IMG/VR virus record: IMGVR_UViG_2893967813_000002
Location: 1-64,000 of that record
From: a virus
Lineage: Duplodnaviria > Caudoviricetes
Length of the DNA: 64,000 nucleotides
Strand: one strand, 5' to 3'
This document shows positions 20,387-38,528 of the stretch, piece by piece. Numbering within the stretch: the first letter of the stretch is position 1; the number at the start of each line of letters is the position of its first letter. The translations under genes and the position numbers were made by a program. A model generated the notes under the pieces. It was not told the DNA's origin, searched no databases, and saw only the letters and a program-made list of their open reading frames with translations.

Positions 20387-20398
20387 AATCGAAACGTT

Positions 20399-20635
20399 AT
20401 GTATTCTACAGTATTAAAAGAAATTATGGCATTTTTACTCGGACGAAAGTATTATGCAAATATAATAGCAACAAGAGGTACAACGAAACAAGAAATTTGT
20501 TCCTACATCTTCGCTACAAAAGAAGCTGCTGAGCGGCATCGGGATGAAATTGAAACAACTCTGTCATTCCGGTATATCGAAACTATTTCGTTCCGTTCCC
20601 GAAAAGTCAGTTTGGAAGCGACAGTTAAAAGTTAA
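20399..20635 (+). CDS. Hypothetical protein
   Basis: 78 aa, in operon. Confidence 0.55.
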   Translation: MYSTVLKEIMAFLLGRKYYANIIATRGTTKQEICSYIFATKEAAERHRDEIETTLSFRYIETISFRSRKVSLEATVKS

Positions 20636-20668
20636 ACCATCCGTGCACCCGTTCACTATTTATCTTTG
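20624..20668 (+). promoter_or_regulatory. Putative phage late promoter P1
   Basis: GTTAAAAGTTAAAC 37 nt upstream of TATCTTTG. Confidence 0.5.
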
Positions 20669-20672
20669 AGCT

Positions 20673-21098: not shown

Positions 21099-21432
21099 TA
21101 TTACTTTCCACGACAATGGACGTATCAATATATCTTCCAGAGTGTCCAAGTTATTGGAATTGTCACATGGTGATGTGATTGATATAATGGACGGACAGGG
21201 TGAAATATATCTGTATGTCAAGCACCGTGTGCCGGTTGTCGGTAGGCACGAGGGGATGGTATTCCGTTCCAATAAGAACGGAAATCATTGTATAGCCTCA
21301 TCCGTGATACTCTGCCGTTACATAATTACAAGGTGCGGAGGAAGTGGAAAGGTACGGTTGTGTTGTGGGACTCCTGTAGAATTGCAACACTACGGGAAAG
21401 CATTGCCGATTATAATTAAATACATATTGTGA
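21064..21432 (+). CDS. Hypothetical protein
   Basis: 122 aa, overlaps previous gene. Confidence 0.6.
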   Translation: MQSILGNTRKADITFHDNGRINISSRVSKLLELSHGDVIDIMDGQGEIYLYVKHRVPVVGRHEGMVFRSNKNGNHCIASSVILCRYIITRCGGSGKVRLCCGTPVELQHYGKALPIIIKYIL

Positions 21433-21433
21433 T

Positions 21434-24130
21434 ATGATTAAAGAGATTAAATACAATGGTTATACCGCCAATCCGTCCGACTACGCATGTCCGGACGGAG
21501 ATTTGGCAACATCAATAGGCTTTATTCCCGAAGATGGTTCACTTAAATCTATATTGCCACCATCTGAGGTGTTCCGGCTTGAAAGTGGGGCATCTGTCAT
21601 GTATATCCATGAAACGGCAAACATAAAACATTACATCATCTTCAAAAACAATGCGATTAGTTGGTGGGACGGCACAGATGAGCATGAACAGGTATCTCTT
21701 CGTACATTCAAGGAGATATACCAAATAAATGCCATTGGAAACACACTTCTCGTTTTGTCGGAAGATGGTATGCATTATTTCCTATGGAAAGGAAATGACG
21801 ATGGGTATTTGTACCTCGGTACTAAAATTCCCGAATGCCCTTTGTCATTTGGTTTGCAAGGGGAAATGGTTCGCACGGATGAGTTCTCCATATCATTTGA
21901 TGCCATTAACGAAGGTAGTATTTGGAATGAATTTTCAGATAGTAATAAAACACGAATAACAGACCAAGTACTTGCACATGTAAACAAGTTTATTGCAGAG
22001 AGGTCAACCAATAAAGGAAAATTCCTTTTCCCGTTCTTTGTCCGATACGCCTATCGCCTATACGATGGAACTTTGACAATGCATTCTGCCCCTATTCTGA
22101 TGATTGCTTCATCTGACCTCGCACCGCAGGTTTTTTGGACGCACCTAACAGGAAAGGGGAAATATACGGATGCACAGCTGCGTGTATGCGGAATGCTACA
22201 CGACCTTGACTATGCAGTCATTCATAATTCACGGCTTGAAATGATTAAGAATTGGAGAGATATTGTTCGCTCGGTAGATGTTTTTGTTTCAAAACCGATT
22301 TATACATACGACCAAAACGGGAAATGCACACGGTTTGCTCAATCAGAAAGTTATAATTCTTATTGCGTATGCAAGCATACCAATCAGGCTGCATCAACTT
22401 CAAAATACCCTCTTCGTTATCAGCGTCATACATTCAATAAACTGTATGCTTTTACTTTTGACCCGAACGGATTGACATATCCTGCCGGACGTTTGATGAT
22501 TCCTCGTAGGAGCATTGATGATGTCAAAGAGGATATTCGCTCCACATCACAGTTCTATTTACTTGAGAGTATTCCTGTAGAGCAGCTTACAACGGCACGG
22601 ACAAAATTGGTTGTTGAGGAAGACTATTTGCAGTCACTTGTCACTCGTGAGGTTATGACGGACGATTATGATAGCCATGATAAATTGTTGCCTAATTATT
22701 CTTTTGTGTATAACTCAAGGCTCAATCTTGCCAATATCAGGAAAGAACTATATGACTTATATAATATTGGGGCAATGATACCATATACCAATGGTTATGT
22801 CGCACTCTGGAATGGAATGCCACCTACTCACATGGATGGAACGATGGGAGCGACCGTTTACTTTTATATAAAACAAGATGGCCGGGATATTGTGGTTAGT
22901 GGAGAATCCTATCAGGTTTCATTCTATAGTCCTCCATTCTTATTTTTGTTCTATCCCAATATAAACGCATATAAAGCAGTCATTGTAACTCACTATGGCA
23001 TTCCTATGTATTATGAAGTCACATTGGAACAACATAAATTCCTCAATGGGTCTTTCTATTTTGCCGGTTGGGAAAATCCGAAAGAAGGTAGTAGCAGCTA
23101 TCCTACTACAAGCCCATTGGTGGAAAGAATCATTGATTTGCCCAACAAAATATATACATCGGAAGTGAACAACCCGTTTCATTTTCCGGTACTCGGCATC
23201 AATACGGTTGGAACAGGAACTATTCTCGGCATTTGCGCTGCTGTGAAAGCATTGTCTGAAGGTCAGTTTGGACAGTTTCCTCTTTATGCCTTTACTACGG
23301 AAGGAGTATGGGCATTGGAAGTGTCTGCTACAGGAACATACTCTGCCAAACAACCGATTACTCGTGATGTGGTCATCAATCCCGACAGCATTACCCAGAT
23401 TGACACTGCCGTCCTGTTTGCTACCGATAGAGGTATTATGCACATCAGCGGCTCGTCCACACAATGTATATCCGACATCCTGAATACGGAGGATTTGTTC
23501 AGCATTGCCGACCTGCCTAAGTCTGATGCGTTGATAAACATCTTCAACGAAAAATCCGATGAAAGCGAAAAGATTACACTCGCAGACATCACGCTGTTGC
23601 CGTTCAACGAATTTCTACGAGGTTGCCGTATGGTGTATGACTATACCCACCAACACATCATCGTATATAACAGTGCAGTGCGTTATGCTTATGTTTTCTC
23701 TTTGAAGTCAAAATTGTGGGGTATGATGTATTCCGATATTGTGGCTAATGTCAATTCCTATCCCGAAGCATTTGCCATGGCAGAAGGTTCGAGATTGGTC
23801 GATTTCTCCAAGTCTAATGCTGAGAATATAACAGCTCTAATTATTACTCGTCCGTTCAAGATGGATGCACCCGATTCGTTCAAGACTATAAATACTATCA
23901 TACAGCGTGGTATGTTCCACTCGACCCATATCCGGCAGGTGCTGTATGGTTCAAACGACCTCATACATTGGCACGTTGTATGGAGCAGCGTGAATAACAT
24001 TATGCGAGGCTTCAGGGGTACACCCTATAAATCCTACCGCCTTGCTCTTGTCTGCCGTTTTGATAAAGCGGAAAGCATATATGGATGTACCGTGGTGTTC
24101 GAGCCGCGTTTGACAAACCAAGTACGATAG
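21434..24130 (+). CDS. Probable tail tubular/stabilisation (nozzle) protein of a short tail
   Basis: 898 aa; C-terminal FGQFPLYAFTTEGVWALEV...QIDTAVLFATDRG beta-rich pattern as seen in P22 gp10/T7 gp12-like proteins. Confidence 0.5.
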   Translation: MIKEIKYNGYTANPSDYACPDGDLATSIGFIPEDGSLKSILPPSEVFRLESGASVMYIHETANIKHYIIFKNNAISWWDGTDEHEQVSLRTFKEIYQINAIGNTLLVLSEDGMHYFLWKGNDDGYLYLGTKIPECPLSFGLQGEMVRTDEFSISFDAINEGSIWNEFSDSNKTRITDQVLAHVNKFIAERSTNKGKFLFPFFVRYAYRLYDGTLTMHSAPILMIASSDLAPQVFWTHLTGKGKYTDAQLRVCGMLHDLDYAVIHNSRLEMIKNWRDIVRSVDVFVSKPIYTYDQNGKCTRFAQSESYNSYCVCKHTNQAASTSKYPLRYQRHTFNKLYAFTFDPNGLTYPAGRLMIPRRSIDDVKEDIRSTSQFYLLESIPVEQLTTARTKLVVEEDYLQSLVTREVMTDDYDSHDKLLPNYSFVYNSRLNLANIRKELYDLYNIGAMIPYTNGYVALWNGMPPTHMDGTMGATVYFYIKQDGRDIVVSGESYQVSFYSPPFLFLFYPNINAYKAVIVTHYGIPMYYEVTLEQHKFLNGSFYFAGWENPKEGSSSYPTTSPLVERIIDLPNKIYTSEVNNPFHFPVLGINTVGTGTILGICAAVKALSEGQFGQFPLYAFTTEGVWALEVSATGTYSAKQPITRDVVINPDSITQIDTAVLFATDRGIMHISGSSTQCISDILNTEDLFSIADLPKSDALINIFNEKSDESEKITLADITLLPFNEFLRGCRMVYDYTHQHIIVYNSAVRYAYVFSLKSKLWGMMYSDIVANVNSYPEAFAMAEGSRLVDFSKSNAENITALIITRPFKMDAPDSFKTINTIIQRGMFHSTHIRQVLYGSNDLIHWHVVWSSVNNIMRGFRGTPYKSYRLALVCRFDKAESIYGCTVVFEPRLTNQVR

Positions 24131-24201: not shown

Positions 24202-24732
24202 TTAAAACGGCTTGCATTTCCGTCTTATCTTGCCTTTTCTTGATACAAGCGATGTCTGTATCTTTCTTTTCAGTTCCTTGAATTTCCCCTCCCAATTCGC
24301 TTGACTACCTGGATTGGTGATGCTCATCCAATCGGCAAGAACCCTGCATACAAGATACTCGTGTATCAGATGCTTCAGCAGCTTCACCGTAGTCATTGAA
24401 AAGCCAACCGGCAAATTCAGTACAATATCGTATGCTTCAGGAGCAGTCAGTACATTATCGAAATTTTCTTGCGTCTCGCCTATTTCCGTTTTTGTATAGG
24501 GAAAAAGCATTTCCACACATTCGGCATGGGCAAGATTCAGTACCCTTGTTACCCGGTCAATATTTCCTTTCTGACCGATGTCGAATACCTGATGCCGGGC
24601 GTGTACATCGTCTGTTTTCATGATGTCGCCCTCAACAAACGAATAGTTCTCGGCATCATATATCAGTTCCGACCGTTTGAATGTCAGTGTTACAGATTTA
24701 GTCTGTAGCTGATTATCATTACAGCAATACAT
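24202..24732 (-). CDS. Putative head-tail adaptor/ring protein (paralogue 3)
   Basis: VTLTFKRSELIYDAEN...HEYLVCRVLADW; similar to the two upstream genes. Confidence 0.5.
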   Translation of the reverse strand: MYCCNDNQLQTKSVTLTFKRSELIYDAENYSFVEGDIMKTDDVHARHQVFDIGQKGNIDRVTRVLNLAHAECVEMLFPYTKTEIGETQENFDNVLTAPEAYDIVLNLPVGFSMTTVKLLKHLIHEYLVCRVLADWMSITNPGSQANWEGKFKELKRKIQTSLVSRKGKIRRKCKPF

Positions 24733-25250
24733 TATTTATTGTATGTCGGTCGTTCCGGGCGACTGCGTTTATACAAAGCACGCTTCACATTCTCCAACGA
24801 CACTCCCGAATGGGAAATATAGGTTTCTGCATCCTCCTTGTTGGTAATGGCGAACCAATCTCCAAGTGCCATGTCCACAAGGTAAGAATGTATGCCGTTT
24901 CCCAATGCGTCTGCCGATGAGTTATTGTAGTTGCTTGGCAACTCAAACGAAAGTTCAAGCACTCCGTCATTGTCAATCTGTTCGGCAATAAGGTTGTCGC
25001 TCGTGGTTTTGTCTTCCGACAGATATTCTCCGAGCAGGCTTTTTAGAGCCGAGAAAGCGTTGGCCAAGGAACGGCGGATTTGGTAGCTGTTCTCATCGTC
25101 ATCACTTGCTTGCATGTTAGAGGCGGCTTCGTATGTCTTTTTGCCTTCTGCCTCTCGTGCCTGCCCGGTCAGGTATGCCTTGTTCTGAATGTCATAGATA
25201 AGTTCTTTGACTTGTTGCGTGACGGTCAATGTCTTTTTGTTCTCTGCCAT
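24732..25250 (-). CDS. Putative head-tail adaptor/ring protein (paralogue 2)
   Basis: LTVTQQVKELIYDIQN...HSYLVDMALGDW...RPERPTY. Confidence 0.5.
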   Translation of the reverse strand: MAENKKTLTVTQQVKELIYDIQNKAYLTGQAREAEGKKTYEAASNMQASDDDENSYQIRRSLANAFSALKSLLGEYLSEDKTTSDNLIAEQIDNDGVLELSFELPSNYNNSSADALGNGIHSYLVDMALGDWFAITNKEDAETYISHSGVSLENVKRALYKRSRPERPTYNK

Positions 25251-25261
25251 AATACATTTAT

Positions 25262-25720
25262 TTAATTGTTACTCGTATCGTATGTAGGGCGCATTGGCTT
25301 TTTCTTGAAAAACGCTTTGCGCATGATGTCCTCCAAATAGGTAGCGGCTTCCGAAGCATATCCGGTTGCTTCATTCTTGTTGGTAAATGTGTACCACTTG
25401 GCCGTGATGTTCATCACGAAGAATGAAAATAGGCTGCGTTGCATACTGGCAGTCAGACTGTCATCGAATGCTGTTGATAAACCTAATGTCAAAGAATACT
25501 CACCGTCCGTTTCTTTCTCCGATATAAGTACTTTTTTCAAACTATTGCAAACCATATTCTTACACTCGTTCCAAAAGCGTTCAAGGATGGATTTATCCTC
25601 TTCGGTGGTCGAAATGGTTTCGTAGGCATGTTCATCATCCATCTTTGCCCCAGTGTATTCCGTTGTCTTTGCTACTTCCTCATACACGGTTTCTTTATTG
25701 ATTTTCAATACTATCTCCAT
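25262..25720 (-). CDS. Putative head-tail adaptor/ring protein (paralogue 1)
   Basis: IVLKINKETVYEEVAK...FSFFVMNITAKW...KPMRPTY. Confidence 0.5.
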   Translation of the reverse strand: MEIVLKINKETVYEEVAKTTEYTGAKMDDEHAYETISTTEEDKSILERFWNECKNMVCNSLKKVLISEKETDGEYSLTLGLSTAFDDSLTASMQRSLFSFFVMNITAKWYTFTNKNEATGYASEAATYLEDIMRKAFFKKKPMRPTYDTSNN

Positions 25721-27492: not shown

Positions 27493-27975
27493 CTATTTTA
27501 AATTAAACATAGTCCAATCCACACTGTCTTTTTCCCTCCATCCGTCCTGAACGGTCTTTATCACATAGGCACACACCGATTGGGAGAACGCAATAAAATC
27601 ATCTGCATTCTCGAAAGTATGATAGATGGGCGTACCATCTTCCTGTTCGTTGATTTTTAGGGTAAGCGGATAAGGGATGTTTTCACTTCGCTCTATGGCG
27701 GAAAAGTTCAGTTGGTTCTCGGTAGAAAGGTATATCTGCTTCTTGTTCCAGACAAAACCGTTTATAATCTTCTCCTCCGTTGTCTTGTTTATAGCGGACA
27801 CGACAATCTCTTTGACCTCGGAAAGTGTAGGCTTGCGGTTGAATGTATGCCTGTATTCCCAACCGCTTTCACTCTTTTCATCGTCTTTCCAAAAGCCAAA
27901 AAACAATATCCACTTGGAGCGTCCTGTACGCACAAGACAATCCTGCCGCTGCTTTGTGCCGTAAATCTTTTCCAT
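27493..27975 (-). CDS. DUF4376-like tail-fibre-associated protein
   Basis: INGFVWNKKQIYLSTENQLN...GWREKDSVDW pattern. Confidence 0.5.
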   Translation of the reverse strand: MEKIYGTKQRQDCLVRTGRSKWILFFGFWKDDEKSESGWEYRHTFNRKPTLSEVKEIVVSAINKTTEEKIINGFVWNKKQIYLSTENQLNFSAIERSENIPYPLTLKINEQEDGTPIYHTFENADDFIAFSQSVCAYVIKTVQDGWREKDSVDWTMFNLK

Positions 27976-28043: not shown

Positions 28044-29531
28044 TCAGGTAAAATTGTATTTTCTCTTTCCTCCGTCAAATACCTCGCATTTGAGAACCGT
28101 TTCAAATGGGAAACCATCTTCAATGTCGCTGATTTGGTCAAGAATGCCTTTCATCTCAACAGAAGCTGTAAAGAACTTTCCCCATTCTTGGGTTGTAGGA
28201 TTGCGGAAAGATACAAGATAACGGTCTTCTCCTTCTTTGGTATCTATACCCGTTTCAAAATCATGTATCTCAATTGGTATATTTACGATGTCACTCAATC
28301 TCATTACTTTTCCGGGAAAGCGTTTCTTTCCGTCAGCAGGAGTATATGTAACTCCCATTTCTGAAAATTTCTTCATTTTCTTGTTTGTAAGTATGTAAAA
28401 CAAATGTTTGCAATCAGCATGGCAAGCCATTCCTTTGAATGAACCTATGATTTCCTGCCTTCTTTTGCGTGATTTGACTTTGGCAAGATTTCTGGCTGCA
28501 TTCTGTTTCGTCCGTTTCCTTAGCAAGGAATACTCCCCGAAATTCACATAACCCAAAGCATCCATGCCGGATGAAATGGGGGCGACTTTCTCGCTGGGCT
28601 TGATGGTCAGTCCAAGTTTGGCACTTTCTTCATGTAGGCAATTCCTTAGTCTCCACAACTCCTTTTTGCTTTCGCCGAGGATAAAGGTGTCATCACAAAA
28701 ACGGAAATAATATGACGCACCGTGCTGTTCTATCATCGCATGGTCAAGGTCATTTAGATACAGGTTGCCGAAAAACTGGGAGGAACGAAGTCCCTTGCTG
28801 ATACCGGCATCCGCATCGGGATATAACACTTTGACAAAATTCTCCAATATCGGCAGCAAAATCGGGTCGGCGATGTATTTCCTGATTTTGTCTATCAATA
28901 TGCTATGAACGATATGGTCATAGTAGCCTTGATAGTCTGATTGATAGAAGTATTTCAGGTTTGGATTTGCTTTCATTGCGGCTTGAATGGCATGAAACAA
29001 ACCTTGCGGCCCTCTTCCCTTGATGGAAGCTGCAGTTGTCTCTATCAGAATGGGAGTAAGTTTTTCCTCTATGATTTCCATAATGGCATTACTGCCCATC
29101 CTTTCAAAGACAGCAGGGGCTTGGACTGTCCGTATTTTAGGACCGTCTTTCGTTTCAAAGGATTTTAGCGTGTTGACTCGGAAAATTCCATTTCCTATCT
29201 GTTCTTTCATTTTTGCAAGTATGGTATCTCGATTGAGTACATATCGTACTTGGCGTGCTGTGTACTTCTTTCCATCAATTAAGACAGAGTTCCTTTTTTC
29301 TGCTTCGGTAGAGGATTGGCTGAGGTTTGACAGCACACGCTTGAATGACGACAATAGGTTTTCTTCCGTTATTATTTCGGGGATGAGGTTGTATAAAGGA
29401 TAACTGACCGAAGGTGTTCCCCCGGTCAGTCCTATAAAATTGTCCGTATCATCATAGACCGCCTTCCGGTCCCGTGAGGAGGATATGAAACCCTCCTCAC
29501 TTGTGGTTAAAGATATGTTCCGGCTTTCCAT
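28044..29531 (-). CDS. DGR reverse transcriptase with C-terminal extension (true start may be downstream of 29531)
   Basis: KIRTVQAP..FERM, AASIKGRG, QSDYQGYYDHI, GLRSSQFFGNLYL (DGR-type SQ), YFRFCDD catalytic motif, DALGY. Confidence 0.93.
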   Translation of the reverse strand: MESRNISLTTSEEGFISSSRDRKAVYDDTDNFIGLTGGTPSVSYPLYNLIPEIITEENLLSSFKRVLSNLSQSSTEAEKRNSVLIDGKKYTARQVRYVLNRDTILAKMKEQIGNGIFRVNTLKSFETKDGPKIRTVQAPAVFERMGSNAIMEIIEEKLTPILIETTAASIKGRGPQGLFHAIQAAMKANPNLKYFYQSDYQGYYDHIVHSILIDKIRKYIADPILLPILENFVKVLYPDADAGISKGLRSSQFFGNLYLNDLDHAMIEQHGASYYFRFCDDTFILGESKKELWRLRNCLHEESAKLGLTIKPSEKVAPISSGMDALGYVNFGEYSLLRKRTKQNAARNLAKVKSRKRRQEIIGSFKGMACHADCKHLFYILTNKKMKKFSEMGVTYTPADGKKRFPGKVMRLSDIVNIPIEIHDFETGIDTKEGEDRYLVSFRNPTTQEWGKFFTASVEMKGILDQISDIEDGFPFETVLKCEVFDGGKRKYNFT

Positions 29532-29636
29532 AAATAATATATTATAATGCTTTTGCCGAGGCGCGAACCCCTCGGAGAATATAATTGCCCAACTCGTAGG
29601 CGTATAGGGTCTCCGATTAGTTAACCATCAGAATTT
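29457..29636 (-). ncRNA. Structured spacer of the DGR template RNA (between TR and RT)
   Basis: Hairpins CCGAGG/CCTCGG (29556-75), GTGAGGAGG/CCTCCTCAC (29474-500), GACCG/CGGTC (29457-71). Confidence 0.5.
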
Positions 29637-29746
29637 GAGCCGACCACCGTAGTTCGTGTTCGAGTTCGAAGATGCGTTGTTCGCGTTCGCATAAGCGAGA
29701 CCGGAGTTCGCATTCGAGTTGTTGCCAGACCGAAGAACACAGCGGC
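29637..29746 (-). repeat. DGR template repeat (TR)
   Basis: 110-bp non-coding copy of VR; 10 AAC/AAT codons in the target frame (RCVLRSGNNSNANSGLAYANANNASSNSNTNYGGRL). Confidence 0.96.
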
Positions 29747-29771
29747 GCGCGGGGTTGTCTGCCTTTATGTA

Positions 29772-30074
29772 TCAAATGGCGAATTTTCCTAAACCTACTA
29801 TTTCAAGGTTGATACTCATTCCCATTGCACGAAATACTTTTCTGATTGTCTGTATGGTAAGATTGCTTCCTTTCTCAATGCGAGAAATCTGCGCTTTCTT
29901 AACTCCAATCATTTCGCCAAGCTGTTCCTGAGTGATGTTTCTTGATTCACGGGCTTGTTTGATTGCCTCACCAATCAAGAACGCATCAACCTTTGCTTCA
30001 TATTCGTCACGTCTTGGAGTTCCTTTAACCCCAATTACGCTGTCCAGCATTTCTTCGTGAGTGTAAAGTTTCAT
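29772..30074 (-). CDS. HigA-like XRE HTH antitoxin
   Basis: IKQARESRNITQEQLGEMIGVKKAQISRIEKGSNLT; overlaps the toxin stop. Confidence 0.85.
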   Translation of the reverse strand: MKLYTHEEMLDSVIGVKGTPRRDEYEAKVDAFLIGEAIKQARESRNITQEQLGEMIGVKKAQISRIEKGSNLTIQTIRKVFRAMGMSINLEIVGLGKFAI

Positions 30075-30415
30075 ATCTTCTGCTTTTTATCGTTAAAATA
30101 CTGTTTTCTAATATTCTCTGCCTTATCAATTTCTTTTGATGGGGTCTTCTGCGTTTTCTTTATAAAGCCGTGAGTGGCAATTACCAAAGTGTCCTCTTCT
30201 GTATCCCAAAATGCCAAAAGCCGATAACAGATGCCATTGTAAAGCGTTCTGAACTCCCAAATATCCGTACCTTCCAATTTCTTAAAAAGTTCTTTGTCTA
30301 TGACAACTCTACTTTTGAAGATATTATAAGCGATTTTATCTTGTACCTTCTCCGGCAAAGAATGGATAAATTCATAAGCTTCTTCTGTATAAACTATTTT
30401 GAATCTCGTTTCCAT
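30071..30415 (-). CDS. RelE/HigB (Gp49-like) type II toxin
   Basis: FKKLEGTDIWEFR...YRLLAF...THGFIKKTQKTP..EI; toxin-first order. Confidence 0.85.
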   Translation of the reverse strand: METRFKIVYTEEAYEFIHSLPEKVQDKIAYNIFKSRVVIDKELFKKLEGTDIWEFRTLYNGICYRLLAFWDTEEDTLVIATHGFIKKTQKTPSKEIDKAENIRKQYFNDKKQKI

Positions 30416-30436
30416 TATTAACTTGATTTCCTTTTG

Positions 30437-30468
30437 CAAAGGTAATAAACAGTTTACATATAAAGAAA
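30437..30468 (-). promoter_or_regulatory. TA promoter with palindromic candidate operator
   Basis: TACCTTTG -7 box (30437-44); TAAAC-A-GTTTA palindrome at 30446-56. Confidence 0.5.
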
Positions 30469-30506
30469 CTTTTCGCTGTCTTTTTACATGAATGATTTAT
30501 AATCGA

Positions 30507-30583
30507 CTCGCTTCGCGAGAATAAAGAAAGAGGGAGCAGCCTTACGGCTCTCCCTCTGACGTTTTTTACGAACTCACGAGTTC
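30507..30583 (-). other. Hairpin cluster downstream of VR (DGR target-recognition hairpin and/or terminator)
   Basis: GAACTC/GAGTTC (30570-83); GAGGGAG-AGCC/GGCT-CTCCCTC with GTAA loop on the minus strand (30530-56); CTCGC/GCGAG (30507-19). Confidence 0.6.
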
Positions 30584-30587
30584 CGCT

Positions 30588-33500
30588 CTATTCTATAATA
30601 ACGAATTTTCCGCGGAAGGCGAGCCGACCACCGTAGTACGTGCTCGAGTACGAAGATGCGTAGTTCGCGCTCGCATAAGCGAGACCGGAGCTCGCATTCG
30701 AGTTGTAGCCAGACCGAAGAACACAGCGGCCTCTACTACCACTCATCCAGAAACCGGCAGCATAATGGGTCACATACATGCTTGTGTCTGTCTTGTGAAC
30801 TCGACTCGGAAGGACATCACATTTCGCTCCATGTACGATACGCACAACACAATTCCCGTTGGATGATTCAACCGTTTTGACTGTGCGCTCCGTTTTTGTA
30901 ACAGGGTCGTAAATATGAGCGGTGTAATCAATCGGATATGAACTGTCATTCTCCGTACATTTGGCTTTATAAAAATCTTCATAAGTCGGGACATTGAACG
31001 CAATGTAGTCCATCCATTCGGAATCACAGCCTACATAGTGCTTTAATCCCAAAATGGAGTTAAGGTTGTTCCCTACATTATAGGAATCTCCCATACCAAC
31101 GTTATCCTGTTTGTTCAGGATAGCGTCATGCACACCGTTGCCGACTACCGACTGTTCATTGGTCGTTCCGTTCAACGCCCACCACAAGTTACTGACTTCT
31201 TTGTGCTGCTCGTAGTCCTGCAACTGGTAGCCCGGTCCTCTCATGCGGCAGATATTCTGAAAGTCCTTGGCAGTGTAGTTCAATGTGCCGATTGGCATTT
31301 CAAGCGGATTGCCCTCACTGTCATATTTCCATTCATTTGAGGTTACGGATGTTCCGTTACCTTTCTTTGAACGTACATCGCCGGATAGGCTTCTCGGCAT
31401 CTTCAAGCCGTCTATGGTGATTGGATAGACACCGATAAGGCTGTCATTGTCGCCTACGGTATGCTCTGTCCATTCAGGTTCTATGGCTTCGATGTTGTCA
31501 CTGTCCACAGTCAGACACTCAATGTCCCCGATGTCACGGAAAGAGGTGAAGTAAAACCACTTTGCACCGCTTGGCACATCGCAGAAGATGTAATCTCCAA
31601 TGGAGAAGTCAAAATAAGTGTGGCTGACAGACATGATGAATATGCTTATCGCTCGGTTGTTCTCGTCCGTGAAGACACCTCCGAGGCGCGCATGATTCAA
31701 TCCCGGCCATCTTACCTGCTTCATGCCTTTCACATCCATCCTGTAACTGTTGGTGTTGGATGCGGTGGCTATCACATCCTCGCTCAGAATTTCACCGATA
31801 ACGGCATCATTCGCATAAACACCGGTATTTTCCCGGTATAGCAGCTCTGACAGCTTCGCCTTTTTGCTATGCAACGCAGTTGAAAGCGGTTCGGATTCAG
31901 TAACGGACGGAATGTAATATTTCGCCTGGTTCTTGTAGTCATTCACTCCCTTGTACCAATGATGAGGGGCGTGCCAAAATATGTCAAAGCCCTCTCCTGC
32001 AGAATCGGACACATCAAAACTGCTTCCATCTTTCAGGTAGTTGAAATCCGTATCGCTTACCTGTACGCCTTCCATTTGGTTCTTCTTGGTGTTGTAAGAA
32101 CATTTATAGGCATGGCATCCTTTCTGTATGGCAAGCATATGTCCGCTCGGAATGTAGGTATTCCCATAATCCGCCCCGGTCTTGTTTTCCGGATTGCTGT
32201 ACCTTTCACAAGAATCACTCTCCACAACATCGCTGATTTTTACGATGGAAAATTGAGAGTTGTGAAGTTCAAGTTGGGGAAAATAGGCAGCAAACGCATT
32301 TATTTCGTCTGTTTCCACAAGTTCGCTCAATATCCAACGGCCGGTAATACCGCTACACTGTTCCTTTTCATCATAAGCATTTCCGTTTGCGTCAAGCCCG
32401 ATTGCGCCGCTTTCCTTAATGGAACGCAACAGTCCGACACTGGCGGTTGCATTCACATTGGGAATCCGGACGGTCTTTAGCGCACTCGCATTGACTATCT
32501 GTTCCAATAGCGTCATGGCATCTACATACGGACACTCATTGACAAATATCTTTGTTATCTTGGCTACACCACCGAGCGTCAGTCCGCCGGGATAGGTAAG
32601 GTTGGGCAGGTTGTTCAGCACGAGTTCCGTTATTGTTTCCGGAAGCGTAAGTTTGTCTATCGGCGATGTTTCAGCCAGTGTGATGGCAGAAAGTCCAGTA
32701 TTGTCGGCATATACGGAAACCAGACGAGGACACTTCGATGCGTTGACGGTCTGCACTTCTGTGTTGCGCACATCAAGAATGCGCAAGAACGGCATATCAC
32801 CCAAATCAAGGTTGGTCATATAGCCTGTGTTACCGGGCGACATCGTCCAGTTACCATGCGATTCTCCGCCCACATACAATTCCTGCAACAACGACATCTT
32901 GGGCAATGTGTTTCCAAATTGGGGGTCGATACTGATTTCACTCAAATCAAGCATACTCATGCGGTCTGCCTGATAGATGTATAGCATAATGTTTTCTCCG
33001 TGTTGAAAGTTTGTGAAAACACCTTCTTCTCCGGCTTTCAGGTAAATGCCTTCCGTGATATTTCCGCTGTCATTACCAATGCCAAAATATCCGCTCTTTG
33101 CTGCCTTGAAACGGATGACGGCACCTTCTTTTGCACCGATACGTCCACCGATATAACCACTCTCCGCCTTGAAGTCGCCGCAGCGGTAGTAGCCGTCACG
33201 GATGCGCCAACGTTGTTCAATAAATGCCGGTAGTGAGGTTAGACCCAAGCCTTGCAGGGCATAGAAATAAAGGTCGCTGTACCCTGTATATTTAATATAC
33301 TTGCGTTCTCCGTCATAGCTTGATACCACTTTCTGCCATTTCTTCAAGCGTTCTGTCACGAAATAGTGCATAGCCCCTTTAGGTGAGAAAGGACCCGCGC
33401 CTATACCGAGCGTGTCAGGCAGGGAGCGCATGGTGTCGGCTATGGCCGACAAGGTAATGGTATTGCCGTTTTGGTCAACTTCCATAGTCTGCTGTCCTCT

Positions 33501-36500
33501 TATATCGTTCCACAGCACAGAACCTCGTCCTGCGTATGCACTGTTTGTCAAATCGCCGGGGTCAACTTCCGGGTCAATGGTCTGCCCTCCGTCATTGTCC
33601 TTTCCGTTGCAGGTGTCGCAGTCATATACCTTGTTGCAGTACATCCGTCTTGCCTCCATACCGTTTACACCGCTATATATACCGTCTTTCACGCTGCATC
33701 CGTCCTCCAAGAAGAACATGGGCTGCATATTCTTCGCCTGTTGGTCAACGGCGGCAAGGTAGTCGGTAAACAGGTAGTACGATACCAACGAATAAGGACT
33801 GATGTATTTCCACATCTTCGTCTTCCATATCTCCTGCCATTTTCCTGCAAGTTCTTCCTTGGCATAGTCGCAGCTGTCGCAGAATTTCAGCACCTGATAC
33901 AGGTCGAACGGCACTTTCCGTCCCATGGCCAGGTCTATCTGCAACTGCTCATCGTCAATCATACACTCGAAGTAACGTGTCCACATCGGGTAGGTTTCCT
34001 GTCCAAGTTTCAGTTTGGTAACCCAAGAGGCCTCGGCGGTGGTCGGCTCCATCATGTCGGCAACACTTCCCACTCCCTGCCACCAGTTCATGGCATCATA
34101 GGTCAGAAGTTCGTAACCGCTCACGGGGTTAAGTACTTTCCCGGTAATCTGCCATTTGCCACCAACCTGTTTCATTTCTCCGGTTTGTGCAGTCCATTCA
34201 CCTCTCTCATATGCCATAAAGCGATAATCCTGTCCGCAATACAATGATAAAAGATATAGTTTATCCTTATTTGTTGTTCCATCATTCTTGAAACGAGTTT
34301 CTATCTGGTCAAGATTCTCTCCTTCTTTACCGAAGTATTCTACAAAGTCTCCATAATTGATGCAACCTTTATTGTATCCGGGAGTATCTTTAAAACCAAG
34401 CGCAACCTGTTCTCCTTTGTCTTCTTTCCAGTTTCCTTTGGCGTGAAACCATGCATCGGTAAGGCTTTCTTGTGTCGCACGGAATGCGGCAATGGGATGA
34501 TTGGCTGTCGAATGGTTCATCTGCAATCCTTTCAACGAGACATCGCTTTTGGTCCAAGTGCCGTCAAATGCACGCTGTGCCGGAGTAAGGTAATCACTGC
34601 CAAGAGCACGGAAAGTGGCATTCATCAGGTCGCATACACCGCAGTCGTTTGCCCCGGAACTGTCAGAATAGTCCACCTTTACTGTGATAATCTTCACAGG
34701 AATAGTATTTTCTCCTACACGCACATAGCCTATTTTCATAAGTTCGTATGAAATTCGGGCATCTTCGTTGTCATAGTCCGGGTAGATAGGTGTAACTTCC
34801 CAACCTTCATTTTTCTGAAGATAGAAGCGGTCGTTCTTGATAGGTCGCTTTGCCGATGTTGTTCCCTGTCTTCTCCATTGTACATTGATTGCCTTGAAAC
34901 TTCTCCATGGTCGTTTCGGGTCGTAGTAGAATAGTGTACATTTGAATTTCTTGCTCGTATCTATGTCACCGTCAAATGTGTCAAAGGTCTGCTGGTCTGC
35001 CACCACCACATAATAAGGCATTCCCTTGGCAGAAAGGGCTTCTATGGTGGGGCGGTTTTGCGTGTCAAGCACGTTCTCTTTCTCGTATTCCACAACCATG
35101 GCAGTGGTGTCTGTCAGTTTGCACAAGTAGTTTTGGAACGCCTGTGCCCATTCATAATGACTCTCGTAGGCAAGCATATAGTACAGGTATAGGTCTCCTT
35201 CCGTACCGTTGAACGTAACGGTTCTGTTGTTAAGGATTGCACCACTGTCACTGATATAACCGATACAGCCCACTTCTTCTCCGTTCAAATACAACTTCAT
35301 GCAGGAGTAATTGCTTCCACCCCGTGATACATAAATGGTGGACGGTTCGACAACTACTGCCATCGTGATTTTCTCGCCAGAGCGAAAGCTGCGCTCAACT
35401 AAGGCAGGCTGTCCTGTTTTACAGTAGATAGCAGCTTTGTTGCCGCATACATAGAAACCTGCACCGCTATCAGGGTCATAACACTCTATGAGTTTTGAAT
35501 CTGCTTCCTTGATGTTCTTGGTGGCAAATGCGAATTGGACGGCACAACCTGTAGTCCGTTCGGTGGCAGAGTTCCCGAAAGGGTAGTAATCCAATATCTC
35601 CGCTTTCACATTCTCTGCTATGCGAAGGCATCGTTCGCCCAAGTAGTCCACGAATCCGTTGCTTGACCAGTTTGCGCCCCTTACATCCATAGTTATGCCG
35701 TTGTTTTCTATGGTATGGTCGCTCTCGCTGTTGCTGCGCGCGGAAAAATCATATCCGAACAAAGCTCCGTCCTTGATGGCCATGTCAATGGCACTCCCTT
35801 TTACAATTACCTTGATTTCATTGGTGGACACATTTCCGCTCTTGGCATGTACGGTAATGCTCTGGCTTCCGTCCGTGCTGTATCCGCTTATCTGCTTGTT
35901 CACGGTAAGCGTTTCGGCAATCATGGCTTCCACGGATGTCACTTTCTCATCGTCATAGAAGACATCCACGTGCGTTTCCGTTTTACCCGATGTGTATGCT
36001 GCGACCTCTATGGTAAGGTTATCATACAGGCGGAGCGTACCGTTGTTGGTGTCGTTGAACCGGATTGCCACGATAGGAGTGGTGTCCTCGGCATCAATAC
36101 ACATGATAGCAGAGTAAATGGTATTGCCCCTTACTCCTGATTTGTTTTCCGTTCCGTAAATGCGTACCGGGTATGCCCCATGTGTCATCCGTTCGCCGCC
36201 GCCGAATACATTACTCGGATTGATGGATATGCTCTTGGTGTAACTGTCATTGACTGTTGCCTCTCCCAGTTTCTTCCATTCCCCGTTGTAGAGCATTTCC
36301 ACTGTGGCACGTATGGATGAGGTGTTGTTTGGGAATTTGTAGAACTGTCCTATATTTTTTGCTGTGCCTCCTACGGTCAATGCGGTGCTGCTTGTGTAGT
36401 TGAGCGGCATAGGCTGTTCAACTGTAATATCCACAGCAACAATGGTAATGGCTTTCTTCTTGGTGTTCCCGTCCGCATCGGTAGCCTGAACAAAGAAACT

Positions 36501-38528
36501 CTTGGATGCGGCACTGCTGAAGTACTCAGTAAAGTCAAGTTCAAACTTGTAGTCCGTTGCACTTGCTGAGCCGGTTTCGTTCATTGCCTCGCTATACAGG
36601 GTAAGTCCTGTGCTTGCATCAATGATTGAAACATTACGGATAACGCCAAGCACTTCGTTACCGTCCGGGTAACTGACACTACGCAAAGCTACATTAATTT
36701 TTATCTCGGAACCGAACGCCACAATGGGGGCGGCTTCCTCAAAGTAGATGGACAGGGTGCTGTCCTCGCTCGAACCTCCGCCTCCTCCATTTTTCGGAAT
36801 CTTAAGTACTACATCTTCTATCTGTCCCCCGTTCAGGTTCACGGCTTTGTAGTAGATATATTCCTCATCGCTTTCTTCGTCAAATCCTCCGATTGATTTT
36901 TCCTGCATGGCGTATGCGCCTCCTGTGGAAAGGGCATCTTTCCCTCCTTCTTCCGGTTTATCGGATGTTTCCACGTTGCTTCCTCCGCCACCGAATGCTA
37001 CCCATGGTTTCAAGTCCTCCGGTGTTATGTCGCTCGCTTCACGTGTAAATTGGTAGGTGAGCCACACGGGTGCACCGTTCTTGTCGCTTTCTGCAGTCTT
37101 GAACGTAAGGATGATACCGCTTTTAAGATAAACTTCCCCATTCTCCTTTTCAAAGTCTGACACGGCTTTGATGGCTGTTGACAAAGTGTATTCCACATTT
37201 CCGCACAGAGCATTTACATTGATTATATCGCCTATGCCCTTGCCACCACCTGCTCCGAAATCGCTCCAGTTGTTTTCTTTAAACCAGTCCGATGTATCAG
37301 TCCATTGTTTGGAAACCCATCCGGATTCCGTCAGGAAGGTCAATACAACACCTGGTATTTTCAATACCGGGGAATATTCGGGGGCGGAACACCGGTCAAG
37401 GGCAACGGAGAATGTTATCTCCCTGTCCGCAAGGTCAAACAGTTGGTTGACATTCACAATGCTACGCGCCACGATTTGCTTGTTTTGCGAAAGTATGGTT
37501 TTCCTGTTTTCTTCCACCTGCTTGATGTCTTCCTGTAACTTCGCACCTTCATCGCCGGGAAATGCCGTTGAACTTGTATGTCCGAGAGCGAGGTCTGAAC
37601 CGATGACGGTCAGTTGCGTGCCGCTCCAACGGTAACTCTTTCCATCCTCTTTGCAGAGGAAAACTTTTCCTGAATAAGGAATCCGCCCATTCATGCTTAC
37701 CGAACCGAAATTGTCGGCATCCAGCCAGTTGTTGTAATAGGTGGGGGCAGAAACGGTTTCCCCTGTATTGGGAGCATACGAGATGACAAAGCAACCGTTG
37801 GTCTTGTCATAAACGACATTGCATCCCTCATCGGTGGAACTCTTGTCAAGGCTTGCCGTTTGGGTGGTAATACCGGTAACGATTTCCTGAAACTCAACCG
37901 CATCATCCACGTATGCGGGCAGGTGTCGGCTCGGTATCTTGCCCAGTTCGTCCAAAGGGGCAAGCCCGCCGTTTTCCCCCTTTGAGTTCTTGAATGTATT
38001 CAGCTGACCGCTGACTTCATTGGCTTTGTCACTTGCTTTTTTTGCTGTGTCTTTGACAGTATTGACTTGTCCTTGCAGTGAGTTGACGCTGTTTCCGAGA
38101 GTGGTCAGTTGTGTATCCTGTGCCTTGTCTTTTCCCTCAATGTCGGTCACATCGTCTTGCAACTTGGTAATATCCTCCTGCAATTTTTCAATGGCTTCGT
38201 TATACTCTCCGCTGTCAATGGTCGGATTGCCGCCGCTATGCCCGGTCGGCACCCATTCTCCGCCGTCGGCGACATATATCGGTGCAGGAAGAGAAGTTCC
38301 GACAAGTGCCCACCAGCCGTCATGCGGAAAAGGATAAGCTGCTTTTAACTTTTCAATGGTAGTGTACAGACCTTTTCCTGCTCCTTTGATATTTTTGGCT
38401 TCAAGCCAACCATCTACGACAACATTTCCTTTCAGATGGGTTTTCCCTTGGACAGTGGCATCGCCTCCTATTGCCGTATTGCGACCTACTGATACATCAC
38501 CATCTATATGCTTTGATTCGTAACTCAT
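30588..38528 (-). CDS. 2,646-aa DGR target: tail fibre/receptor-binding protein (LamG-like, CotH-like, LRR-like, C-terminal CLec/FGE fold)
   Basis: VR in the last ~45 codons with the typical R.G...A..G......N..S......GGRLAF end; located in the structural module. Confidence 0.85.
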   Translation of the reverse strand: MSYESKHIDGDVSVGRNTAIGGDATVQGKTHLKGNVVVDGWLEAKNIKGAGKGLYTTIEKLKAAYPFPHDGWWALVGTSLPAPIYVADGGEWVPTGHSGGNPTIDSGEYNEAIEKLQEDITKLQDDVTDIEGKDKAQDTQLTTLGNSVNSLQGQVNTVKDTAKKASDKANEVSGQLNTFKNSKGENGGLAPLDELGKIPSRHLPAYVDDAVEFQEIVTGITTQTASLDKSSTDEGCNVVYDKTNGCFVISYAPNTGETVSAPTYYNNWLDADNFGSVSMNGRIPYSGKVFLCKEDGKSYRWSGTQLTVIGSDLALGHTSSTAFPGDEGAKLQEDIKQVEENRKTILSQNKQIVARSIVNVNQLFDLADREITFSVALDRCSAPEYSPVLKIPGVVLTFLTESGWVSKQWTDTSDWFKENNWSDFGAGGGKGIGDIINVNALCGNVEYTLSTAIKAVSDFEKENGEVYLKSGIILTFKTAESDKNGAPVWLTYQFTREASDITPEDLKPWVAFGGGGSNVETSDKPEEGGKDALSTGGAYAMQEKSIGGFDEESDEEYIYYKAVNLNGGQIEDVVLKIPKNGGGGGSSEDSTLSIYFEEAAPIVAFGSEIKINVALRSVSYPDGNEVLGVIRNVSIIDASTGLTLYSEAMNETGSASATDYKFELDFTEYFSSAASKSFFVQATDADGNTKKKAITIVAVDITVEQPMPLNYTSSTALTVGGTAKNIGQFYKFPNNTSSIRATVEMLYNGEWKKLGEATVNDSYTKSISINPSNVFGGGERMTHGAYPVRIYGTENKSGVRGNTIYSAIMCIDAEDTTPIVAIRFNDTNNGTLRLYDNLTIEVAAYTSGKTETHVDVFYDDEKVTSVEAMIAETLTVNKQISGYSTDGSQSITVHAKSGNVSTNEIKVIVKGSAIDMAIKDGALFGYDFSARSNSESDHTIENNGITMDVRGANWSSNGFVDYLGERCLRIAENVKAEILDYYPFGNSATERTTGCAVQFAFATKNIKEADSKLIECYDPDSGAGFYVCGNKAAIYCKTGQPALVERSFRSGEKITMAVVVEPSTIYVSRGGSNYSCMKLYLNGEEVGCIGYISDSGAILNNRTVTFNGTEGDLYLYYMLAYESHYEWAQAFQNYLCKLTDTTAMVVEYEKENVLDTQNRPTIEALSAKGMPYYVVVADQQTFDTFDGDIDTSKKFKCTLFYYDPKRPWRSFKAINVQWRRQGTTSAKRPIKNDRFYLQKNEGWEVTPIYPDYDNEDARISYELMKIGYVRVGENTIPVKIITVKVDYSDSSGANDCGVCDLMNATFRALGSDYLTPAQRAFDGTWTKSDVSLKGLQMNHSTANHPIAAFRATQESLTDAWFHAKGNWKEDKGEQVALGFKDTPGYNKGCINYGDFVEYFGKEGENLDQIETRFKNDGTTNKDKLYLLSLYCGQDYRFMAYERGEWTAQTGEMKQVGGKWQITGKVLNPVSGYELLTYDAMNWWQGVGSVADMMEPTTAEASWVTKLKLGQETYPMWTRYFECMIDDEQLQIDLAMGRKVPFDLYQVLKFCDSCDYAKEELAGKWQEIWKTKMWKYISPYSLVSYYLFTDYLAAVDQQAKNMQPMFFLEDGCSVKDGIYSGVNGMEARRMYCNKVYDCDTCNGKDNDGGQTIDPEVDPGDLTNSAYAGRGSVLWNDIRGQQTMEVDQNGNTITLSAIADTMRSLPDTLGIGAGPFSPKGAMHYFVTERLKKWQKVVSSYDGERKYIKYTGYSDLYFYALQGLGLTSLPAFIEQRWRIRDGYYRCGDFKAESGYIGGRIGAKEGAVIRFKAAKSGYFGIGNDSGNITEGIYLKAGEEGVFTNFQHGENIMLYIYQADRMSMLDLSEISIDPQFGNTLPKMSLLQELYVGGESHGNWTMSPGNTGYMTNLDLGDMPFLRILDVRNTEVQTVNASKCPRLVSVYADNTGLSAITLAETSPIDKLTLPETITELVLNNLPNLTYPGGLTLGGVAKITKIFVNECPYVDAMTLLEQIVNASALKTVRIPNVNATASVGLLRSIKESGAIGLDANGNAYDEKEQCSGITGRWILSELVETDEINAFAAYFPQLELHNSQFSIVKISDVVESDSCERYSNPENKTGADYGNTYIPSGHMLAIQKGCHAYKCSYNTKKNQMEGVQVSDTDFNYLKDGSSFDVSDSAGEGFDIFWHAPHHWYKGVNDYKNQAKYYIPSVTESEPLSTALHSKKAKLSELLYRENTGVYANDAVIGEILSEDVIATASNTNSYRMDVKGMKQVRWPGLNHARLGGVFTDENNRAISIFIMSVSHTYFDFSIGDYIFCDVPSGAKWFYFTSFRDIGDIECLTVDSDNIEAIEPEWTEHTVGDNDSLIGVYPITIDGLKMPRSLSGDVRSKKGNGTSVTSNEWKYDSEGNPLEMPIGTLNYTAKDFQNICRMRGPGYQLQDYEQHKEVSNLWWALNGTTNEQSVVGNGVHDAILNKQDNVGMGDSYNVGNNLNSILGLKHYVGCDSEWMDYIAFNVPTYEDFYKAKCTENDSSYPIDYTAHIYDPVTKTERTVKTVESSNGNCVVRIVHGAKCDVLPSRVHKTDTSMYVTHYAAGFWMSGSRGRCVLRSGYNSNASSGLAYASANYASSYSSTYYGGRLAFRGKFVIIE
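30621..30730 (-). repeat. DGR variable repeat (VR)
   Basis: 103/110 identical to TR; 4 A>T and 3 A>G changes, all at TR adenines; encodes the C-terminus of the target. Confidence 0.96.

What the first reader, a model, noticed from the sequence alone, without database searches (positions are those of the whole stretch)
28044..30730. Complete DGR diversifying the tip of a giant tail protein
Seen: RT with DGR-type SQ and FCDD motifs; 110-bp TR (29637-29746) and VR (30621-30730) with 7 mismatches, all at TR adenines. The match extends 6 bp further with AAA>GCC. TR has 24 adenines, 20 of them in 10 AAY codons, which cannot mutate to stops. Hairpins lie just downstream of VR. Knowledge: this is mutagenic retrohoming as in Bordetella BPP-1. 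Inference: it drives receptor (tropism) switching in a Bacteroidales phage, and VR divergence shows past activity.
Basis: partly seen in the sequence, partly recalled or inferred. Interest (0 to 1): 0.85.

Follow-up and report, generated by a model that had tools for sequence, protein, structure and literature searches.

The report
Active Avd-less DGR in Bacteroides phage
This is a real diversity-generating retroelement that rewrites the last ~35 codons of a 2646-residue phage virion protein; the kind is already known and a near relative is published, but this lineage lacks the usual helper protein and has a toxin-antitoxin pair inside its template transcript.

Summary
TR (29637-29746) and VR (30621-30730), both read on the minus strand, differ at 7 of 110 positions, all at TR adenines (P about 1e-5). 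Twenty of the 24 TR adenines lie in 10 in-frame AAY codons.

In 15 VR copies from related IMG/VR phage contigs, 130 of 133 differences from the TR fall on adenines. The TR is identical in 11 of 14 copies. The element has therefore been active recently in this lineage.

It is a new member of a known kind. The sister phage BS-TP4 has the same cassette, and its DGR was reported in 2025 (PMC12694917). This scan also noted similar DGRs on other genomes.

Corrections and additions:
- No Avd is encoded anywhere in the 76.6-kb record.
- The RT carries a conserved OB-like C-terminal domain, which is a separate gene in a distant DGR.
- A HigB/HigA-like pair lies between the promoter box and the TR.
- A covarying hairpin follows the VR.
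- AAA>GCC is a fixed IMH/IMH* difference, not mutagenesis.
- VR x TR recombination has collapsed the cassette at least five times in relatives.

"Tail protein" and tropism switching remain inference.

The parts
30588..38528 (-). Target gene, 2646 aa. It follows the SU10-type major capsid gene and two small genes. The VR encodes residues about 2600-2636, near the C-terminus.
   Evidence: ORF; phrog_14959 over the full length, and the C-terminus matches phrog_5302 'tail protein' at E 2.4e-12. No Pfam or PDB sequence match.
30621..30730 (-). Variable repeat (VR), 110-nt core.
   Evidence: 7 mismatches to the TR, all at TR adenines. Related contigs show 130 of 133 changes at A sites.
30610..30632 (-). 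IMH-like 3' end of the VR. An A-free GC-rich 12-mer shared with the TR (30621-30632) is followed by GCCTTCCGCGG, which is fixed in all VRs; the TR has AAATTCTGATGG at that place.
30530..30556 (-). Conserved hairpin about 55 nt 3' of the VR: 12 bp with a bulged G and a GTAA loop, followed by a T-rich run. Candidate target-recognition hairpin and/or terminator of the target gene.
   Evidence: Folded. 100% paired across 16 distinct sequences, 4 pairs with compensatory changes, 0 of 500 shuffles reach this.
30437..30444 (-). Bacteroides-type -7 promoter box (TACCTTTG), 22 nt upstream of the higB-like ATG.
   Evidence: In 30 of 30 distinct TA-bearing cassettes the only boxes lie here. In 16 of 16 short-gap cassettes the box lies 26-47 nt upstream of the TR.
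30071..30415 (-). HigB/RelE-like toxin gene (Gp49 family), 114 aa from the ATG.
   Evidence: PF05973, 63.1 bits against a cut-off of 23.9.
29772..30074 (-). HigA-like XRE/HTH antitoxin gene, 100 aa. It overlaps the toxin gene by 4 nt and ends 25 nt before the TR.
   Evidence: PF01381 HTH_3, 55.7 bits; antitoxin-type NCBIfam matches, all below their cut-offs.
29637..29746 (-). Template repeat (TR). Homology extends to 29628. In the target's reading frame the TR ends in TGA.
   Evidence: Identical in 11 of 14 related contigs.
29402..29636 (-). Structured RNA 3' of the TR. It comprises the 105-nt spacer (including the hairpin at 29556-29575) and three hairpins inside the first ~130 nt of the RT ORF (29474-29500, 29457-29471, 29402-29432).
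   Evidence: Consensus fold of 6 sequences: 57 pairs, 12 with compensatory changes. Coordinates. The N-terminal 40 aa of the RT model have pLDDT below 50.
28044..29531 (-). DGR reverse transcriptase, 495 aa. The RT core is about aa 45-383.
   Evidence: RVT_1; best PDB match is bRT 8ub7 at E 1.3e-18, with the SQ and xCDD motifs aligned; these motifs are invariant in 16 relatives.
28047..28382 (-). C-terminal domain of the RT (aa 384-495). It is a small beta-barrel with OB-like topology and is the most conserved part of the protein.
27493..27975 (-). 160-aa gene directly 3' of the RT. Candidate accessory gene (CH1-like?) or tail-fibre chaperone.
   Evidence: Syntenic with the RT in 153 of 154 loci that have room, down to about 38% RT identity. 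phrog_19239; no Pfam match; pI 5.8.

Best explanation
This is a functional DGR of an Avd-less, Bacteroides-associated lineage, carried by a 76.6-kb phage.

Shown:
- An intact DGR-type RT.
- A TR 105 nt upstream of the RT.
- A VR forming the 3' end of a 2646-aa gene in the structural module.
- Strictly adenine-specific TR-to-VR differences, both here and across the population.
- An A-free GC-rich segment followed by a fixed IMH/IMH* difference.
- A covarying hairpin after the VR.
- Covarying RNA structure 3' of the TR.

Inferred mechanism:
1. A transcript starts at the TAnnTTTG box upstream of the HigB/HigA-like pair and runs through both genes into TR, spacer and RT.
2. The RT copies the TR into cDNA and misincorporates opposite adenines. 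Its fused OB-like domain, and perhaps the 160-aa neighbour, would stand in for Avd.
3. The cDNA replaces the VR, with direction set by the IMH-like end and the hairpin.

The 10 AAY codons plus 3 other codons with a replaceable adenine allow about 3.7e13 peptide variants and no stop codons.

Inferred function: the varied C-terminal surface binds a host-surface ligand, so the phage population can follow changes in Bacteroides surfaces.
For: - TR/VR statistics.
- Only one VR and one RT in the whole record.
- Population: 130 of 133 substitutions at A, all 24 A sites hit, TR invariant in 11 of 14 copies.
- A-only mismatches recur in most of the 80 loci of the RT family.
- RT motifs and bRT as best solved relative.
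- Hairpin covariation.
- RNA structure 3' of the TR.
- Promoter-box placement, 16 of 16 against 30 of 30.
- Phage context (portal, TerL-like, SU10-type capsid).
- Bacteroides isolates with the same cassette.
- A published DGR call for BS-TP4 gp14 (PMC12694917).
- Avd-less Bacteroides DGR lineages and RT C-terminal extensions are documented (PMC5758913).
Against: - No reads or experiments were available, so activity in this particular genome is inferred from close relatives.
- The C-type-lectin fold of the VR domain could not be shown. There was no Pfam hit, no FGE-sulfatase hit and no PDB sequence hit. The only pointer is an Atlas lead.
- The tail or receptor-binding role rests on gene position and one PHROG match.
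- Co-transcription of the TA pair with the TR rests on a short promoter motif that occurs about 3 times by chance in 3.6 kb. Its placement across relatives is nevertheless perfectly consistent.
Confidence: 0.85

Rival explanations
1. The target is not a receptor-binding tail protein. The DGR diversifies a virion or non-virion protein with another ligand, for example mucin or glycan adherence or counter-defence, so VR variation does not change host range.
For: - No tail tube, sheath, tape-measure or baseplate gene was recognised near the target.
- The target has no Pfam domain.
- Non-structural DGR targets are known in Bacteroides phages of the Quimby group (PMC8008677).
Against: - The gene lies directly after the capsid genes and before the lysis genes.
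- Its C-terminus matches phrog_5302 'tail protein'.
- The authors of the BS-TP4 paper judged the homologue tail-related from predicted structures.
Confidence: 0.25
2. The cassette in this genome is a recent relic. The VR differences were made in ancestors, and the element no longer retrohomes.
For: - Collapsed, dead forms arise often in relatives: BKO1-TP3, L028, L059, L101, L085.
- Some TRs have lost adenines.
Against: - All parts are intact here.
- Contigs with 98-100% identical RT and identical TR each carry a different VR. Turnover is therefore faster than the divergence of the rest of the cassette.
Confidence: 0.07
3. The repeat is an ordinary duplication that diverged by random mutation, and the RT is an unrelated defence or group-II-type enzyme.
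For: PADLOC's best match for the RT is RT_UG4 (94.6 bits). NCBIfam gives sub-threshold group II and Drt3a matches.
Against: - 7 of 7 mismatches here, and 130 of 133 across relatives, fall on adenines.
- PADLOC returned only DRT-, generic RT- and CRISPR-associated RT models, none labelled DGR, so its ranking is not informative.
- bRT is the best solved relative.
- None of the NCBIfam matches reaches its curated cut-off.
Confidence: 0.01

Closest known systems
DGR of Bacteroides phage BS-TP4 (PQ571277; target gp14), reported in Gut Microbes 2025 (PMC12694917)
   Same: Same gene order: giant target, RelE-type toxin, XRE regulator, TR, 496-aa RT, 160-aa-type gene. The TR/VR pair is 110 nt and 1012 nt apart. 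The matched DNA segments are 79-82% identical.
   Different: A different phage: 76.6 kb against 64.3 kb, with different VR content. In the passages I read, the paper reports the DGR and a roughly 2000-aa tail-related target. Those passages do not discuss the TA pair in the leader, the lack of Avd, the OB-like domain or the collapsed forms.
Bordetella phage BPP-1 DGR (mtd-avd-TR-brt)
   Same: Order of target-VR, TR, RT on one strand. Adenine-specific mutagenesis. AAY-rich TR. GC-rich end followed by an IMH/IMH* difference. Hairpin after the VR. RT with SQ and xxDD motifs, and bRT is the best solved relative.
   Different: No Avd anywhere. The RT is 495 aa against 328 aa, with an extra OB-like domain. 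A toxin-antitoxin-like pair sits where avd lies. The target is 2646 aa and no C-type-lectin match could be demonstrated.
Avd-less Bacteroides DGRs: Lineage 3/3a, Architectures A and E1 with the CH1 accessory gene (Wu et al. 2018, PMC5758913)
   Same: No avd. Bacteroides association. An RT C-terminal extension of about 110 aa without a known motif. A conserved flanking gene of 160 aa, which is the CH1 size range (160-169 aa).
   Different: Membership could not be tested because no CH1 or Lineage-3 sequences were on hand. The pI of the 160-aa protein is 5.8, against 4.7 +/- 0.2 reported for CH1.
Hankyphage and Quimbyvirus DGRs (Bacteroides temperate phages; PMC6199706, PMC8008677)
   Same: DGRs of widespread Bacteroides gut phages.
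   Different: No DNA or protein similarity to them appeared in the phage-collection searches. The Quimbyvirus RT is split over three frames and has two targets.

Membership tests
Diversity-generating retroelement (DGR) | TR/VR pair whose differences are confined to TR adenines | tested here: met
   7 of 7 in the window (P 1.1e-5); 130 of 133 across 15 related VRs.
Diversity-generating retroelement (DGR) | RT of the DGR type: SQ in motif 4 and an intact xxDD catalytic motif | tested here: met
   GLRSSQ and FCDD align to TSQ and YMDD of bRT 8ub7, E 1.3e-18. They are invariant in 16 relatives.
Diversity-generating retroelement (DGR) | TR adjacent to the RT, and VR at the 3' end of a protein-coding target on the same strand | tested here: met
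   The TR ends 105 nt before the RT start. The VR ends 33 nt before the target's stop codon.
Diversity-generating retroelement (DGR) | GC-rich end and IMH (VR) versus IMH* (TR) difference that sets direction | tested here: met
   A shared A-free 12-mer is followed by GCCTTCCGCGG (VR, fixed in all relatives) against AAATTCTGATGG (TR). Its function was not tested.
Diversity-generating retroelement (DGR) | Hairpin/cruciform 3' of the VR | tested here: met
   12-bp stem at 30530-30556, with covariation in 4 pairs and 100% pairing in 16 sequences.
Diversity-generating retroelement (DGR) | Avd accessory protein (present in about two thirds of DGRs, not universal) | tested here: not met
   PF05635 has no match at E <= 1 in six frames of the whole 76,652-bp record. 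In relatives the VR-TR gap is 231-286 nt with no gene.
Diversity-generating retroelement (DGR) | VR displayed on a C-type-lectin (or Ig-like) fold | tested here: inconclusive
   No Pfam, FGE-sulfatase or PDB sequence match. As an Atlas lead, 7 of 30 neighbouring hits belong to the cluster set in which FGE-sulfatase occurs (17% of members in the best such cluster).
Diversity-generating retroelement (DGR) | RT-dependent mutagenic retrohoming observed | not testable with these tools
   Needs reads or an experiment.
Avd-less Bacteroides DGR lineage with CH1 (Wu et al. 2018, Architecture E1) | Flanking CH1 gene: 160-169 aa, acidic (pI about 4.7), no avd, HRDC or MSL | tested here: inconclusive
   A 160-aa gene is syntenic in 153 of 154 loci and there is no avd. 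However, its pI is 5.8 and no CH1 sequence was available to compare.
HigBA-type type II toxin-antitoxin pair | RelE/ParE-superfamily toxin (Gp49/HigB-like) encoded first, overlapping an HTH-XRE antitoxin gene | tested here: met
   PF05973 at 63.1 bits and PF01381 at 55.7 bits, both over their cut-offs. Toxin-first order with a 4-nt overlap.
HigBA-type type II toxin-antitoxin pair | Toxicity of the first product, and its neutralisation and autoregulation by the second | not testable with these tools
OB-fold single-strand nucleic-acid-binding domain | Five-stranded barrel with a helix between strands 3 and 4, and a clear structural match to known OB proteins | tested here: inconclusive

The most novel reading that the evidence does not exclude
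In this Avd-less lineage two things may be new.

(1) The OB-like module, fused to the RT here and a separate overlapping gene in a Paludibacter DGR, may be the functional replacement for Avd.

(2) The HigBA-like pair inserted between the DGR promoter and the TR may be more than a passenger.
- It may place TR-RT expression under antitoxin autoregulation.
- Because it lies between the two direct repeats, it may penalise the VR x TR recombination that repeatedly destroys these cassettes. It would then act as an addiction module guarding a hypermutation device.
Probability: 0.2. Interest if true: 0.6.

Novelty: new member of a known kind. Interest (0 to 1): 0.4.

Why it matters
DGRs are the main known way for gut phages to vary binding proteins quickly, and Bacteroides phages are a focus of gut-virome work. 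This instance adds little as a bare DGR call. Its family of over 80 related cassettes does give a clean natural data set in four respects:
- an invariant TR set against many VRs;
- a conserved target hairpin;
- three cassette layouts that differ only by a toxin-antitoxin insert in the TR leader;
- repeated collapse by VR x TR recombination.

It also offers a candidate Avd substitute for a lineage in which Avd-independent retrohoming has been suspected since 2018 but not explained. A simpler, self-contained RT of this type could be of use for engineered targeted mutagenesis.

Tried and rejected
- Avd: PF05635 found nothing in the whole record.
- Additional VRs: an A-tolerant scan of the genome found only the one.
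- Target fold: Pfam on the whole protein and on five segments up to E 1, a PDB search with the sequence and with a 14-sequence profile, FGE-sulfatase in six frames, and Pfam on all alignment members all gave nothing usable. These Pfam scans also listed no CotH-like or LRR family, which other first-reader notes had proposed.
- CH1 comparison: the paper's supplements are not held.
- Context of 'standalone' C-domain proteins:
  - The P0013 family turned out to be fused in 78 of 78 loci.
  - P0051 gave no viral locus.
  - P0087 finally gave a genuinely split case.
- The sigma-70 promoter scan is not suited to Bacteroides and was not used.
- The single-sequence fold of the TR-spacer RNA was not better than shuffles (z -0.8). 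Only the comparative fold was informative.
- PADLOC ranked the RT under RT_UG4, but none of the listed matches was a DGR model, so this was disregarded.
- Both structure-prediction jobs went to the RT, so none was left for the target's C-terminus.


Full report
**1. The observation**

The window holds two 110-nt direct repeats, 29637-29746 and 30621-30730, which are 984 nt apart and 94% identical. All genes in this region run on the minus strand.
- On that strand the 7 mismatches are all A in the copy next to the RT (the TR) and G or T in the copy inside the large ORF (the VR).
- The TR has 24 A among 110 bases, so 7 of 7 on A has probability 1.1e-5.
- In the target's frame, 20 of the 24 A lie in 10 AAY codons. 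The remaining four lie in TAT, GCA, ACG and TAC, so no substitution at A can create a stop.
- An A-tolerant scan of the whole 76,652-bp record found no further VR.
- The record has a single RT.

**2. The RT**

ORF 28044-29531 (-) encodes 495 aa with an RVT_1 domain.
- Its best solved relative is the Bordetella phage BPP-1 RT (8ub7, E 1.3e-18).
- GLRSSQ aligns to the DGR-typical TSQ, and FCDD aligns to YMDD.
- Both motifs are invariant in 16 relatives.
- NCBIfam matches to group II and Drt3a models are far below their cut-offs.
- PADLOC ranks the protein under RT_UG4. None of the matches it returned is labelled a DGR RT model, so this ranking says little.

**3. Context**

The record is an IMG/VR virus that CheckV rates as complete.
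- The surrounding genes include a portal, a TerL-like protein, an SU10-type major capsid protein, DarB-like giant proteins and replication genes.
- The nearest isolates are Bacteroides phages BS-TP4 and BKO1-TP3.
- BS-TP4 has the same cassette, including the toxin-antitoxin-like pair and a 110-nt TR/VR pair.
- Its DGR, with the roughly 2000-aa-class target gp14, was reported in Gut Microbes 2025 (PMC12694917).

The kind of element, and even this cassette, are therefore already described. Other windows of this scan noted similar DGRs on other genomes.

**4. Activity**

A 21-nt A-free word from the 5' end of the repeat retrieved 19 IMG/VR loci. In their 15 VR copies:
- 130 differences from the canonical TR fall on A and 3 elsewhere;
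- all 24 A positions are hit;
- the spectrum is 68 A>T, 49 A>G and 13 A>C.

The TR is letter-identical in 11 of 14 copies. Contigs whose RT is 98-100% identical each carry a different VR. This is strong evidence that the element has been working recently in this lineage, though not proof for this genome.

The 3' triplet difference AAA (TR) against GCC (VR) is fixed in every VR. It therefore belongs to the IMH/IMH* difference and is not a product of mutagenesis.

**5.

(a) No Avd.
- PF05635 has no match in six frames of the whole record.
- In 80 loci of the RT family (51-100% identity), the simplest cassettes have only 231-286 nt and no gene between VR and TR.
- Avd-less DGRs, an Avd-less Bacteroides lineage, and unexplained RT C-terminal extensions of up to about 150 aa were described by Wu et al. 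(PMC5758913).

(b) RT C-terminal domain (aa 384-495).
- It is the most conserved part of the protein.
- It models with pLDDT 95.2 as a b1-b2-b3-helix-b4-b5 barrel.
- The family has 182 clusters at 50% identity.
- It was fused to the RT in 78 of 78 further viral loci.
- In a Paludibacter MAG it is a separate 105-aa gene. That gene overlaps the end of a 343-aa RT, which has its own TR and two A-mutated VRs.
- A module that is either fused or adjacent behaves like a working partner of the RT.

(c) The 160-aa gene directly after the RT (27493-27975).
- It is syntenic in 153 of 154 loci, down to about 38% RT identity.
- It may be the 'CH1' accessory gene of Wu et al., or simply a chaperone of the target protein. 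I could not test either reading.

(d) The toxin-antitoxin-like pair.
- A Gp49/HigB-like gene (30071-30415) and an XRE/HigA-like gene (29772-30074) lie between VR and TR.
- Three diverged versions of such a pair occupy the same place in relatives, giving VR-TR gaps of 844, about 874 and about 900 nt.
- In 16 of 16 distinct short-gap cassettes, a Bacteroides-type TAnnTTTG box lies 26-47 nt upstream of the TR.
- In 30 of 30 distinct cassettes with the pair, there is no box within 110 nt of the TR. The only boxes lie just upstream of the toxin gene.
- The pair therefore sits inside the leader of the TR-RT transcript. Co-transcription is inferred, not shown.

(e) The hairpin after the VR (30530-30556).
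- It is conserved in sequence and structure across the family.
- It has 12 pairs and a bulged G, and all 192 pair positions checked (12 pairs x 16 sequences) are paired.
- Four pairs show compensatory changes, and 0 of 500 shuffles are as good.
- A T-rich run follows, so it may also terminate the target gene.

(f) RNA 3' of the TR.
- The spacer and the first ~130 nt of the RT ORF fold into conserved stems.
- In a 6-sequence comparison, 12 of 57 pairs show compensatory change.
- The corresponding N-terminal 40 aa are poorly conserved and model with low confidence.

**6. Failure modes seen in relatives**

Collapsed cassettes.
- BKO1-TP3, an isolate, has the target's 5' flank joined to an unmutated TR-like sequence and the TR's 3' flank, directly ahead of the RT.
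- L028, L059, L101 and L085 show the same collapse.
- L101 and L085 are hybrids, VR-like in the 5' part and TR-like in the 3' part. This marks a crossover inside the repeat.
- The TR frame ends in TGA, so the fused gene stays open.

Eroded TRs.
- Three contigs carry TRs that have lost adenines.
- In one of them (L018) the VR differs from that altered TR only at the remaining A's.

Some of these are metagenome assemblies and could be chimeric. The isolate is not.

**7. The target**

The 2646-aa protein follows the capsid genes.
- It has no Pfam domain.
- Its last ~250 aa match phrog_5302 'tail protein' (E 2.4e-12).
- The Atlas places it near clusters that sometimes carry FGE-sulfatase, a C-type-lectin-fold family.
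- Motifs around the VR (a ...EWMD motif, then ...RSG, the VR, and ...RLAFRG) are conserved.

'Tail protein' and 'tropism switching' remain reasonable inferences only.

**8. Verdict**

This is a genuine DGR that has been active recently in its lineage, and a new member of a known kind. The features of some interest to specialists are the Avd-less design with an OB-like module, the toxin-antitoxin pair in the TR leader, and the recurrent VR x TR collapse.

Noticed in passing
window 1628-3709 (-): A MobA/VirD2-type relaxase (521 aa, PF03432, 71.9 bits) and a NikA-like mobilisation protein (132 aa) lie in the low-GC left end of a record classed as a complete phage. This could be a mobilisable insert or a phage-plasmid. 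BS-TP4 is about 12 kb shorter.
   Followed up: no
L002 (BKO1-TP3) 14090-14420; L028, L059, L101, L085, the ~330 nt before each RT: Collapsed cassettes in which VR and TR have recombined into one repeat. The VR 3' end and any TA pair are deleted, and the target ends in ...RLKF. L101 and L085 are VR/TR hybrids.
   Followed up: partly
L013, L016, L018 (TR copies): TRs that have lost 9-13 adenines. The L013 TR equals its own VR. L016 and L018 share one altered TR, and the L018 VR differs from it only at the remaining A's. This suggests VR-to-TR conversion or mis-homing, unless it is an assembly artefact.
   Followed up: partly
L186 1171-3857 (Paludibacter MAG): A distant DGR with a 343-aa RT, a TR at 1851-1931, two VRs in tandem small genes (159 and 181 aa), and the OB-like module as a separate 105-aa gene that overlaps the RT stop by 17 nt.
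   Followed up: partly
window 52129-58473 and 58446-63995 (-): Two very large ORFs (2114 aa and more than 1849 aa, overlapping by 28 nt); the first, which was the one scanned, matches DarB-like antirestriction, helicase and methyltransferase families. BS-TP4 annotates a single 5391-aa gene at this place, so the window may hold a frameshift or a real split.
   Followed up: no
window 24202-25720 (-): Three adjacent paralogous genes of 152-176 aa (phrog_19255 and phrog_35482, function unknown) lie after the lysis region.
   Followed up: no
window 42507-42998 (+): A 163-aa rhomboid-like membrane protein, just at Pfam's cut-off (22.8 against 22.6 bits), ends directly before the TerL-like gene.
   Followed up: no
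window 8909-8996 (+): tRNA-Val (anticodon TAC) at the boundary between the low-GC left arm and the replication genes.
   Followed up: no
L185 (BS-TP4) 20340-22436: The gene annotated as 'tail spike protein' in BS-TP4 corresponds to the TerL-like gene of the window. Its own note cites a terminase structure match. The label looks wrong.
   Followed up: no
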